Of a stretch of DNA of 64,000 nt, positions 1,310 through 30,296 are shown one piece after another. The DNA comes from Amoebophrya sp. A120. Lineage: Eukaryota > Protista > Dinoflagellata. The position numbers and the translations under genes were made by a program. How positions within the stretch are numbered: position 1 is the stretch's first letter; every line of letters starts with the position of its first letter. Below the pieces are notes generated by a model. The model had not been told where the DNA came from, made no database searches, and worked only from the letters and a program-made list of their open reading frames with translations. Where the stretch lies: assembly GCA_905178155.1 (NCBI GenBank), contig CAJINV010000004.1, positions 7,210,548 through 7,274,547 on the forward strand, read 5' to 3'.

Positions 1310-3783
1310 CTAGTCACAGCGGGAACTACAGGTGGGACGAGGTTCTCTTCCTTCTTATGGCGTTCTCAAACGTTACATTCTCAACTGTTACATGGATTTG
1401 TCATGCAAATTAGCCATGAATATCTACACGATCAAGCTGCTTCGCATGACAAGTTCGCGACTTGCTAGATCGCATGGGAATCTACGCCAAACCTGTAATG
1501 CAAAAGGCGCAATCTTCCCCTTTTCAATTTTGCCACTCTTGCATTACAAATTCATGTAACAGTTGAGAATGTAACGTTTGAGAATGCCATACTTCTTTTT
1601 CTTTACTTATGATTCGCCTGTGTACGAGTCCTGAGACGTCAATGTGGAAGTCCTCCCAGTAATGCTCGAAACTTTCAGACAGCGCTTTGTACGCGTCCAT
1701 GCTTTTCAACTTTCCAATGAGCTCCGCTTCCGTGGCGGTAGGTTTTGCTCTTTGCATTTCCCTATCAAGTGCAAAAATGTCTGGGTCTGGAAGATTTTGA
1801 GATTTGTCATGCAGGTTCTGCCTGGGCCATGATGTCTGTGATGCATGCCCTAGCATCACAGATTTTTTGAGGCCCTCGCGATGCCTATTCCGCATGACAA
1901 ATGCCCTCTCCGCGTAGCAAAAATTACACTCCCTTTGCTGCTCATGCAATACAGATTTTTTTGGAATCCAAACTCAGCATCACAAGTTGCATTCTTCCAG
2001 ACCCAGACATTTTTACATTTGATATTCCCTCGCCTCCTTCTCCAAGATTTTCCACACTCTCCACCCTCCCTCCGACATACGCATTAGCTATGAAAGCCTC
2101 AGGTTGGCAATCCTCAAAGTGAAAATAATTTGTAATGCAAAAAAGCGACTCCAGTTGGAGCACCATTTCTAGTCGGCGCATGACAAATTTGCCGGGCACT
2201 CAAAACGTGTCTGTCATGCTAGTTAGTCAAAGGGGTGCCCTTCTCTCTTGCTAATCAGCAGCCCGATTCTGAACCCGTAGAAGCACAATAGTCGGCCTCC
2301 ATTGCGTTCGCTGCAATGCAGTCTTTTTGGTGTCGCATTTCATGCATCACAAATCATTTCCACGTTGAGGATTTCCATTCTGAGGGTGTCATATTAGCTG
2401 GCTGCCGCGATCTCTATGTTTTTCCAAAAGGGAACAAGACGCCGCCAATGCGGGCACGAGGACGGTTTTGACGAAGCGAACGCTATCGCTTTGGTCCGCC
2501 GGCACGAAGCCCATCTTGGCCCAGAAAACATGGGCATCGCGCACAGCGTCTAGTTGTAGATCCGAAATTCCTCGTCGCGTTCTGCTTTGAAAAGGAAACC
2601 TCTCGTCGTCCGCGGTCTCGTCGTCCCCAGCGGCGACGTGTTCCGCAGGCTTGTGCAGAGCGTAGTTCATGATTCGGAGCATGAAGAGAAGCCCGGCCCC
2701 TTGTCCCCTTTCTCCAGCTGCGGCAACCTTTTCGATTTTCAAAATGCCTTTTGGAAGTCCATCGTTTTCGCCGGCTATCGGCTCCTCGACCCACTCGCTG
2801 AGAAGAAGCGTTTTTTCGTGTACTTGGAGGTTTTTGTCTTTTCCCTTGAAAGGATTAGTCAAAATTGCACGCTCCAAGAACTCGCCGGAATTTTTATGCG
2901 ACACAAGAGTCGACGACGGTGCCCCATGCGGAGGTACATCGAACTGCAGGAGATACTGAGACCCCTGTTCCAGGTCCAGCTGCTGCATTTTACAGCGACA
3001 TGCGTTCTTTTTCTTTTTCTCCAAGTTCTCCTCGTGTGCCTTCTTCAGCCACGGCGACCGAGCGACAACAGCTGGGATTTTTCGACCCTTAGTACACGAG
3101 GACCCGCTGCCAGCACCTGTAGATGAAGTCACGGCTGGATTTATTTTATCTTGGTCTTCTTGCTCCTGCGCTATCTTGGCTTCCTCTTGTAACACTGTGT
3201 CATTCCCGAAATCTACTAACATGCCCCGTACAAAGTCGATCTGCTTCTGCGTCACTTCCAGAATATCATCGTCTACAACATCTCGATCTCCGTTGGGCAG
3301 GGACGAGCCTGCTTTACTCGGAGGCTTTTCGTCGTAGACTAGACTGGCTTTTGGGCTCACATAGAATAACCGCGGTCCAGCTTTGACGCAAAGCAGGTTG
3401 TTGACAAACTTGTCGCGCTCTTCGGCGCTTGCAACTTCGGCGCCGAAAAAGGTAGCTTTGCGCGCCTCTCCACTGTCTCGTCTAGTTGTACTGGGGTTGA
3501 AGAAATTCAGTTGAACAAATTTGCGCTTTTCTCCTGCTCCTTGGGGATGATCTTCGCCGGAAGTAGAACAACTCGCCCTACTACTGCTTCCGACGGTAGT
3601 CCTACCGCTAGAAGCAGCTGCAGCTGAATGCTCCTCCGTGCCAGAAGTAGGGACCACGGTAGAACTCAAAAAACTGGATGCGTCGATAGAGCTGCCCGAC
3701 ACGCCAACAACGGCCAGACCGGTAAAAACAGCACACCGCACCACAAGCAGGCAGAGGAAGCCGCTGGTGCTGGGGTATATCAT
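1310..3783 (-). CDS. GNAT-family acetyltransferase-like protein with N-terminal signal peptide; 3 introner introns
   Basis: Start MIYPSTSGFLCLLVVRCAVFTGLAVVG; GNAT motifs ERGQGAG and FWAKMGF. Removing 2089-2393, 1763-2024 and 1356-1591 (each plus one DR) gives ...GSQLMRMSEGG...EAREMQRAK...KEKEGREPRPTCSSRCD* in frame. Confidence 0.75.
1356..1591. mobile_element. Introner family D
   Basis: cttct|tatggcgttctcaaacgttacattctcaactg...cagttgagaatgtaacgtttgagaatgccata|cttct. Confidence 0.92.
1763..2024. mobile_element. Introner family C
   Basis: ttccc|tatcaagtgcaaaaatgtctgggtctggaag...cttccagacccagacatttttacatttgata|ttccc. Confidence 0.92.
2089..2393. mobile_element. Introner, family B-related
   Basis: ttagc DR; imperfect TIR of about 50 bp (tatgaaagcctcag / tatgacaccctcag). 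Confidence 0.88.

Positions 3784-30296: not shown

What the first reader, a model, noticed from the sequence alone, without database searches (positions are those of the whole stretch)
1356..29088. Multi-family system of TAT...ATA, TIR-bounded, 5-bp-duplicating elements that must be excised precisely from genes without GT-AG signals
Seen: about 55 elements in the window from at least 9 TIR families, all inside coding sequence or the duplicated gene fragment. Intact copies start TAT, end ATA and sit between 5-bp direct repeats of arbitrary sequence (sense-strand examples: gaaga, cacca, cctct, attct, ccctt). Removing the element plus exactly 5 nt restores the frame at nearly every junction translated, and many DRs offer no GT or AG in any register. 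Known: inverted-repeat/direct-repeat introners with non-canonical ends are reported for Amoebophrya, so the class itself is not new. To my knowledge their excision mechanism and mobilising enzyme are unresolved. Inference: these are non-autonomous DNA transposons removed by a non-GT-AG RNA pathway in which the TIR stem brings the ends together, or removed from DNA like ciliate IESs with pointer repeats.
Basis: partly seen in the sequence, partly recalled or inferred. Interest (0 to 1): 0.88.

Follow-up and report, generated by a model that had tools for sequence, protein, structure and literature searches.

The report
Transposon introns with hidden splice code
These small transposons are cut out of messenger RNA even though most lack the usual GT-AG signals, a class already described in the parasite Amoebophrya; the new point is a likely fixed cut position with a likely 'any base-U-A' start and an adenosine seven bases before the end, which would point to a relaxed spliceosome and can be tested directly.

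Summary
The window has 51 complete TAT…ATA elements (8 multi-copy families, 6 singletons); 38 have perfect 5-bp repeats and only 3 can be read as GT-AG. RNA-derived contigs skip element+5 nt at 10 of 10 directly readable junctions and also lack an ordinary intron, while a run with genomic contigs keeps the elements. Removal is therefore at RNA level, not IES-like.

The class is published: Amoebophrya A120 introner elements (PMC7789003), one family labelled Ginger-like with 5-bp TSD and TA/TA ends (PMC12130899 dataset). That paper left intron borders unresolved.

New here: four junctions with diverged repeats jointly allow one register, intron = N·TAT…ATA·NNNN. In 415 strand-called copies, conservation follows transcription direction. 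Donor-side T+2/A+3 never vary (0 vs 14 variants at mirror positions); the adenosine at −7 almost never varies (1 vs 13). Target sites show no GT/AG bias.

Best reading (0.55): a relaxed U2-type spliceosome reads N|UA, branches at A−7 and cuts by distance, the TIR hairpin bringing the ends together. A Euglena-like non-spliceosomal route remains (0.3). Against: ordinary introns lack a fixed A−7, and the register's bounds rest on two junctions from one sample. No transposase was found.

The parts
9446..30332 (-). Host gene: 3584-codon ORF (first Met at 30296) split by 33 elements and 4 ordinary introns; no Pfam family in the exons scanned
   Evidence: transcript contigs
17787..18045 (-). Ordinary 259-nt GT-AG intron (alternative GA-AG reading 17799-18057), absent from the RNA contig that also lacks the elements
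24765..24941 (-). Ordinary GT-AG intron; RNA contigs leave the genomic sequence at its acceptor
26487..26714 (-). Ordinary GT-AG intron (predicted)
28067..28270 (-). Ordinary GT-AG intron (predicted)
461..1310 (-). Duplicate of 26182-27479 (about 95% identical) lacking elements 26276 and 26774: two DNA-level empty sites differing by element + 5 nt (175 and 267 nt)
168..460 (.). Left-truncated family C element; 1-114 is the right part of another element
889..1064 (-). Family A, in duplicate, perfect DR
1112..1308 (-). Family H, in duplicate, right flank at breakpoint
1356..1591 (-). Family D, perfect DR, ends GT-AA at 4|1
1763..2024 (-). Family B, perfect DR, AT-GA
2089..2393 (-). Family C, perfect DR, AT-TA
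5207..5356 (-). Family A, perfect DR, AT-AG
6000..6261 (-). Family B, perfect DR, GT-CC
7212..7360 (-). Family A, perfect DR, AT-CC
7440..7590 (-). Family E, perfect DR, GT-GA
7770..7979 (-). Family H, perfect DR, GT-GC
9506..9614 (-). Family F, perfect DR, 3' end AGA instead of ATA
9814..10066 (-). Family B, perfect DR, AT-CG
10110..10366 (-). Family B, perfect DR, 3' end ATG instead of ATA
10400..10574 (-). Family A (degenerate), DR differs at 2 positions
10711..11001 (-). Family G, perfect DR, GT-AA
11608..12613 (-). 1006-bp singleton, diverged DR; RNA contig skips element + 5, allowing -1 to 2 downstream-copy bases kept; GT-TT
13008..13219 (-). Family H; RNA contig skips element + 5; TT-GC
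13734..13980 (-). Singleton; RNA contig skips element + 5; AT-CG
15889..17551 (-). 1663-bp singleton holding a 96-bp tandem array, perfect DR, TT-TC
18146..18323 (-). Family A, DR differs at 2 positions
18392..18540 (-). Family A, GT-AG at the 4|1 register only
19083..19350 (-). Family B; RNA contig skips element + 5; TT-TC
19839..20118 (-). Family G, GT-AG at 4|1; removed in RNA by block sum
20180..20334 (-). Family A, CT-TC; removed in RNA by block sum
20438..20584 (-). Family A, CT-TA; removed in RNA by block sum
20794..21100 (-). Family C, GT-CG; removed in RNA by block sum
21170..21442 (-). Family B, AT-CG; removed in RNA by block sum
22217..22378 (-). Singleton, DR differs at 3 positions; RNA joint 22211>22379 allows 0-2 downstream-copy bases kept; CT-CG
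22665..22785 (-). Family A; RNA joint 22659>22786; AT-GC
23146..23417 (-). Family B, DR differs at position 4; RNA joint 23140>23418 allows 0-1 (upper bound of the register); GT-CC
23636..23891 (-). Singleton; RNA joint 23630>23892; AT-GC
23956..24209 (-). Family B; RNA joint 23949>24209; GT-AG at 4|1
24265..24426 (-). Family A, DR differs at positions 3 and 5; RNA joint 24260>24428 allows 1-2 (lower bound of the register); GT-TC
25775..25925 (-). Family E, perfect DR, CT-TA
25966..26119 (-). Family A, perfect DR, AT-CA
26276..26445 (-). Singleton, 3' end ATT, one DR change in the intronic copy; empty site in the duplicate
26774..27035 (-). Family B, 5' end TAA instead of TAT; empty site in the duplicate
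27042..27215 (-). Family A, perfect DR
27263..27477 (-). Family H, perfect DR, AT-TG
27555..27711 (-). Family A, perfect DR, TT-CT
28354..28514 (-). Family A, one DR change, GT-AC
28575..28795 (-). Family H, one DR change, AT-GA
28849..29088 (-). Family D, perfect DR, CT-AG
33091..33241 (.). Family A, perfect DR; host strand uncertain
37676..37982 (.). Family C, perfect DR; host strand uncertain
38046..38196 (.). Family A, one DR change; host strand uncertain
55786..55935 (-). Family A, perfect DR, AT-GA
62661..62769 (-). Family F, perfect DR, GT-AT
63356..63507 (-). Family A, one DR change
63550..63694 (-). Family A, one DR change
63776..63928 (-). Family A, perfect DR, CT-GC

Best explanation
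These are non-autonomous TIR transposons that sit between 5-bp target duplications and are removed from transcripts with exactly one repeat's length, likely at a fixed register (intron = last base of the upstream repeat + TAT...ATA + first four bases of the downstream repeat) and likely by a relaxed U2-type spliceosome that would read N|U-A as donor, would branch at the adenosine 7 nt before the 3' cut and would place that cut by distance instead of at AG. Shown: the anatomy, RNA-level loss of element + 5 nt, removal in both element orientations, no GT/AG target bias, and polar conservation of +2, +3 and -7. Inferred: one fixed register for all copies (about 0.8); spliceosomal chemistry and branch point; the TIR hairpin standing in for U1/U2AF pairing of the ends; mobilisation in trans by an integrase-like DDE transposase (Ginger/IS3EU-GingerRoot type) that may bind the shared internal GCATNA(C/G)AA motif.
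For: RNA-type contigs skip element + 5 nt at 10 of 10 directly readable junctions, and 5 more by an exact 422-nt block sum; the same contig lacks a 259-nt ordinary intron. Four diverged-repeat junctions allow -1..2, 0..2, 0..1 and 1..2 downstream-copy bases; the only common value is 1, and all 3 elements that can be GT-AG are so only at that register. All nine commonest non-canonical dinucleotide pairs listed for A120 begin N-T (PMC7789003 Table S4). In 415 strand-called copies, variants at element positions 1-2 are 0 at the 5' end against 14 at the 3' end (p 1.2e-4), and at position 3 they are 13 against 1 (p 0.002). The direction is the same in plus- and minus-strand genes, and inner TIR positions vary on both sides. 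Wobble pairing does not explain it: 5' A>G, which would give a G-U pair, is never seen, while 13 pair-breaking changes opposite A-7 are. Predicted ordinary introns show the same donor core, A at +3 in 77% of 70 with +4 and +5 loose. At repeat position 5, G is gained in the donor copy 9:2 against 10:15 at positions 1-4 (p 0.03; p 0.06 in the larger set). Nearly all spliceosomal proteins and U2/U4/U5/U6, but not U1, are reported for A120.
Against: The upper and lower bounds of the register each rest on one junction, seen in two runs of one sample; X3 and X4 showed neither joint. Ordinary predicted introns have no fixed A at -7 (39% of 70, background level), so the ruler is not a general rule of this spliceosome. 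A-7 is predicted paired in the stem (P about 0.8), whereas a branch A must be exposed. Repeat mismatches fall at third codon positions in 33 of 52 cases, more than expected if one copy were free (about 41%, p 0.002), which could mean a partly variable register. Neither end shows a preference for a better branch-site context. PMC7789003 describes splice sites as variable relative to the hairpin. No lariat, no snRNA contact and no transposase were observed.
Confidence: 0.55

Rival explanations
1. Non-spliceosomal, structure-guided RNA excision as in euglenid nonconventional introns: the TIR hairpin presents both ends to an endonuclease-ligase or other non-snRNP machine that cuts 1 nt 5' and 4 nt 3' of the stem base and reads a few bases.
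For: All 60 folded copies pair at least 10 bases between their first and last 30 nt (mean 25); z = -5.9 for one RNA-verified copy. Any base is tolerated at +1 and at -2/-1. U1 snRNA was not detected in A120. Euglena has a spacer-plus-paired-motif code (PMC12501133 abstract). A protein could also read U+2, A+3 and A-7.
Against: Terminal conservation is polar and by base identity, not by pairing. Family A ends mismatch at positions 4-7 more often than shuffled ends, and family B shows only a small total excess of pairing (4440 vs 4411 +/- 14). The conserved 5' bases match the ordinary GTA donor core.
Confidence: 0.3
2. Spliceosomal or other RNA removal, but with a loose register inside the repeat, so that 4|1 is only the commonest of several cuts.
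For: Third-codon-position excess of repeat mismatches (33 of 52); the published description of variable sites; few informative junctions.
Against: Contigs show one joint per element; four diverged junctions share one solution; the two in-frame stops among 45 diverged copies arise only if 2 or fewer upstream bases are kept; invariance of +2/+3 implies a fixed donor.
Confidence: 0.12
3. Programmed DNA excision (IES-like) in some life stage, with transcription from the cleaned template.
For: Precise empty sites exist in a DNA duplicate in the window; the list of joints in the genomic-type run was cut (2838 not shown), so rare empty sites are not excluded.
Against: Genomic-type contigs at single-copy depth (about 26-34) run from exon into element without mismatch, while the element-free contigs also lack an ordinary intron. 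End constraints follow transcription direction. A cut inside the repeat at 4|1 is not the reverse of a 5-bp staggered integration (inference). PMC7789003 validated these introns by RNA-seq against the genome.
Confidence: 0.03

Closest known systems
Amoebophrya sp. A120 introner elements (PMC7789003; read: abstract, sections 10, 11, 12, 16, 32, passages, supplement passages and part 3 of 5; figures not visible)
   Same: IRs start TAT, then 7 loose bases and an A run; 3-5-nt DRs with a 5-bp example; non-canonical ends; RNA-seq support; many families; MITE-like.
   Different: That paper calls the borders variable or unknown and mentions no branch site. The fixed 4|1 register, the polar U+2/A+3/A-7 constraint and the shared GCATNA(C/G)AA motif are not in the text I could read.
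A120 introner family 38, 'TIR DNA / Ginger' (PMC12130899; read: passages, appendix passages, 38 of 58 A120 dataset rows)
   Same: 5-bp TSD, TA/TA termini, TIRs.
   Different: About 808 bp with integrase-related ORF remnants; the window's elements are mostly 109-307 bp and I found no transposase in or near them. Most other A120 families in the rows read are 'TIR DNA, unknown' with TSD calls of 2-6 and mixed splice-site calls.
IS3EU/GingerRoot DNA transposons (PMC10045372, passages; PMC6839031, listing only)
   Same: TA..TA termini, integrase-related DDE class.
   Different: TSD usually 6 bp there, 5 bp here; no transposase found here.
Fritillaria borealis non-canonical introns (bioRxiv 2025.08.15.670264, PMC13326754, PMC11282704; passages)
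   Same: TIR transposon-derived introns without GT-AG, handled by a modified U2 spliceosome.
   Different: There the splice sites are the TIR ends themselves (AG-AC, AG-AT); here both cuts fall in arbitrary target sequence outside the TIR.
Euglenid nonconventional introns (PMC12501133, abstract; PMC11282704, passages)
   Same: Stem joins the ends, free terminal bases, cuts offset from the stem, proposed MITE origin.
   Different: Signature is a paired CDG/CH'G motif with 3 and 5-6-nt spacers and a purine exon start; excised as circles. Here the offsets are 1 and 4 and constraint is by polar base identity.
Ciliate IESs (recalled, no call)
   Same: Short TE-like inserts in coding DNA bounded by repeats, precisely removed.
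   Different: IESs leave somatic DNA; these stay in DNA and leave RNA.

Membership tests
Amoebophrya A120 introner elements | IR starting TAT + 7 loose nt + A run at both ends | tested here: met
Amoebophrya A120 introner elements | Short DR at the exon/intron boundary | tested here: met
   5 bp in 38 of 51 window copies and 280 of 362 TIR pairs in the loci
Amoebophrya A120 introner elements | Spliced from transcripts with non-GT-AG ends | tested here: met
   9 of 10 RNA-read junctions cannot be GT-AG
Amoebophrya A120 introner elements | Sequence identity to published family consensuses / strain identity | not tested
   No genome or consensus file was available; the organism is inferred from the matching description
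Non-autonomous TIR transposon (MITE-like) | TIRs, constant TSD from insertion, dispersed copies in both orientations, no coding capacity | tested here: met
IS3EU/GingerRoot or Ginger | TA..TA termini | tested here: met
IS3EU/GingerRoot or Ginger | 6-bp TSD usual for IS3EU/GingerRoot | tested here: not met
   5 bp; no pair of 362 had an exact 6-bp repeat
IS3EU/GingerRoot or Ginger | Autonomous copy encoding an integrase-like DDE transposase | tested here: inconclusive
   None in the window or in 694 kb of loci; whole genome not held
U2-type spliceosomal intron | GT-AG ends | tested here: not met
   3 of 51 window copies; 9 of 415 copies at 4|1
U2-type spliceosomal intron | Conserved U+2 and A+3 of the donor | tested here: met
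   415 of 415 at each position, given the 4|1 register
U2-type spliceosomal intron | Branch adenosine with lariat formation | not testable with these tools
   A at -7 in 414 of 415 is suggestive only
Euglenid nonconventional intron | N3-CDG ... CH'G-N5-6|R signature | tested here: not met
   Ends are N-TAT ... ATA-N4; first exon base is any of the four
Ciliate IES | Removed from DNA | tested here: not met
   Genomic-type contigs keep the elements; rare excision not excluded

The most novel reading that the evidence does not exclude
Amoebophrya has a spliceosome that needs neither G+1 nor a 3' AG nor a recognisable U1 snRNA. Any transposon with TAT...ATA ends becomes a perfect intron in either orientation at any site, because one end supplies U+2/A+3, the other supplies a branch A, the hairpin pairs the ends and a 7-nt ruler removes exactly one 5-bp target duplication.
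Probability: 0.4. Interest if true: 0.85.

Novelty: already known. Interest (0 to 1): 0.58.

Why it matters
The elements are known, but how tens of thousands of them are spliced has been open since 2021, with the borders called unknown. A fixed register and three constrained bases turn that into specific predictions (a lariat joining +1 to A-7, a cut 4 nt past ATA). They would also let A120 introns be annotated correctly, and would explain how a transposon can insert anywhere in coding DNA without changing the protein. If spliceosomal, it would be an unusually relaxed case, with both terminal dinucleotides free apart from U+2.

Tried and rejected
No whole genome is held, so no genome-wide transposase search was possible. 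One search lists no holder on record as RNA; X3-X6 are guessed RNA, and I accept them as RNA because they lack an ordinary intron. A search for the annotated host protein, to read more junctions, found nothing (only 449-2000 aa searched). Target-site bias for G at +1, AG at -2/-1 or AGG: none significant in 49 window sites; 110 G and 33 AG of 415. Fixed A-7 in ordinary introns: rejected (ab initio calls, 70 of 496 kept). Codon-usage test of which repeat copy is coding: no signal (16 of 37 vs 9 of 15). Covariation between the two TIRs: only family B positions 10 and 14 in excess, family A in deficit. Long copies: 16 candidates over 420 bp; L039 476-2934 has family B ends and a 408-aa ORF with no Pfam, homologue or Atlas hit, so it is not called a transposase. 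Of 110 ORFs of 300+ codons in the loci, 69 were scanned with Pfam (plus one shorter ORF); none hit a transposase or integrase family. Rfam: nothing in the window. Earlier findings of this scan: none. Literature searches for a published register or branch point found none; bioRxiv 2020.10.14.339549 (listing only) has no mention of Amoebophrya.
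Full report
1. Observation. A strict scan for TAT...ATA pairs with a perfect 5-bp flanking repeat and a TIR found 36 hits in the window, against 0-1 in 30 simulated windows. 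38 have perfect repeats and 4 have one changed terminal base. They fall into 8 multi-copy families and 6 singletons; BLAST merged two of the families, which I split by eye. Members of one family lie in both orientations relative to the host gene. Removing 33 elements with 5 nt each and four ordinary introns opens a 3584-codon minus-strand ORF. GT-AG is possible in any register for 3 of 51. A DNA duplicate inside the window lacks two elements by exactly element + 5 nt.

2. Removal is at RNA level. Run X1 has long contigs at depth 26-34 that pass from exon into element with 0-1 mismatches. Runs X3-X6 are only guessed to be RNA. A 7859-nt contig of X4 tiles the exons, and four junctions can be read directly from its coordinates, each skipping element + 5. 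Five more elements fit an exact 422-nt block. A further block requires loss of 259 nt that is not an element, and an independent ab initio model predicts a 259-nt GT-AG intron there. X5 and X6 give six more joints, each element + 5, and their contigs leave the genome at the AG acceptor of another ordinary intron. So these are spliced transcripts. All come from one study and two samples. Nine of the ten directly read junctions cannot be GT-AG, and they include both orientations of families A and B.

3. Register. With perfect repeats the cut is ambiguous. Four RNA-read copies have diverged repeats and allow -1..2, 0..2, 0..1 and 1..2 bases of the downstream copy to be kept; only 1 fits all. The intron is then N5-TAT...ATA-N1N2N3N4. 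All four bases occur at +1 among the RNA-read junctions. The three GT-AG-capable copies are GT-AG only at this register, and the nine commonest non-canonical pairs listed for A120 all start N-T. Caveat: each bound comes from one junction in one sample, and a single shared register is assumed.

4. More copies. One metagenome scan returned 128 loci from a single assembly, 694 kb after removing overlaps, with the same families at up to 93% identity; whether it is the same strain is not known. The repeat is 5 bp in 280 of 362 TIR pairs and never exactly 6. I detected ends without using the first three bases or the repeat: 518 pairs, of which 485 were kept (33 dropped for weak repeats or two changed ends). 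Strand was called from flanking codon usage: 287 confident, 415 in the widest set, 70 uncalled; neighbours agreed 152 of 152. The model was trained on window ORFs.

5. Polar constraint. In the confident set, element positions 1 and 2 are invariant at the 5' end (287 of 287 each) but vary 11 times at the 3' end, while position 3 varies 11 times at the 5' end and once at the 3' end. The widest set gives 0:14 and 13:1 (p 1.2e-4 and 0.002), the direction holds for genes on either contig strand, and the three variants among uncalled copies fit on their tentative strand. Inner TIR positions vary on both sides. In intron terms U+2, A+3 and A-7 are fixed, while +4, -5 and -6 drift. Simple pairing does not predict this, nor does strand-biased mutation, since the same base change is common at one site and absent at another on the same strand (inference). 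Target sites show no enrichment for G or AG, but where repeat position 5 has diverged the donor copy tends to hold G (9:2, p 0.03; 11:3, p 0.06).

6. Results against. Predicted ordinary introns share the GTA donor core (A+3 77%) but have no fixed A-7 (39%; 70 of 496 ab initio calls kept). The hairpin is predicted in all 60 copies folded and usually pairs A-7. Repeat mismatches are enriched at third codon positions (33 of 52), which a fully free intronic copy would not give. A codon-usage test of the register was null.

7. Mechanism. Insertion (inferred): a trans-acting integrase-like DDE transposase recognises TA...TA ends, perhaps with the shared GCATNA(C/G)AA motif, and makes a 5-bp staggered cut at near-random sites. 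Removal (outcome shown, chemistry inferred): the symmetric ends give either orientation a U-A donor one base inside the cut and an adenosine 7 nt before the 3' cut, so exactly one repeat length is lost. I put 0.55 on a relaxed U2 spliceosome, 0.3 on a non-spliceosomal stem-guided route, 0.12 on a loose register and 0.03 on DNA excision. That U+2 is the most constrained donor base, and that some lineages and group II introns place the branch A a short fixed distance from the 3' site, is recalled knowledge, not from a call.

8. What is known. PMC7789003 describes these elements in A120 (29,850 repeated introns, TAT start, 5-bp DR example), says the borders are variable or unknown, reports no U1 snRNA and found no transposase in A120; I could not see its figures, which may bear on the register. 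The PMC12130899 dataset labels A120 fam38 'Ginger, 5-bp TSD, TA/TA termini' and, in the 38 of 58 A120 rows I read, leaves most families as unknown TIR elements with mixed splice calls. IS3EU/GingerRoot share TA..TA ends but usually have 6-bp TSDs. Fritillaria and Euglena are the nearest functional analogues, on the spliceosomal and non-spliceosomal side. Six searches found no paper fixing the register or a branch point; subscription papers are not covered, and bioRxiv supplements are closed.

9. Verdict. Real, and already known as a class. The added value is a specific, testable splice code. Interest 0.58.

Noticed in passing
all element families; window and L001-L128: A shared internal motif GCATNA(C/G)AA occurs at 11 per kb inside elements against 0.7 per kb outside, in 398 of 415 copies, on both strands, most often 32-43 nt from an end, across families that are otherwise unalignable. 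Candidate binding site for a common transposase or splicing factor.
   Followed up: partly
window 461-1310 vs 26182-27479: A DNA duplicate keeps an ordinary intron and two elements but lacks two others precisely; both missing ones have a mutated terminus. Gain after duplication and precise loss cannot be told apart.
   Followed up: partly
L039 476-2934: 2459-bp element with family B ends and a perfect 5-bp repeat, carrying an orphan 408-aa ORF.
   Followed up: partly
window 16250-17120 and L031 17372-18274: A 96-bp GC-rich tandem array inside the 1663-bp element recurs at 84% identity next to another element end; possibly a nested repeat.
   Followed up: no
window 7381-7383: In-frame TAG in the small exon between elements 7212 and 7440 interrupts an otherwise open 740-codon frame.
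   Followed up: no
window 45977-54990: Two ORFs of 1498 and 1455 codons, probably joined by an ordinary intron (50434-50654), with no elements; weak sub-threshold HicA-like hit near the N-terminus.
   Followed up: no
window 59280-60620: GC-rich, roughly palindromic region built of 11-bp repeats in both orientations; another repeat type.
   Followed up: no
window 39196-41217 and 41941-43008: Element-free genes with a RING finger and a cold-shock-like domain.
   Followed up: no
diverged repeats, window and loci: Mismatches between the two repeat copies favour third codon positions (33 of 52), with the upstream copy usually A/T and the downstream copy G/C; unexplained.
   Followed up: partly
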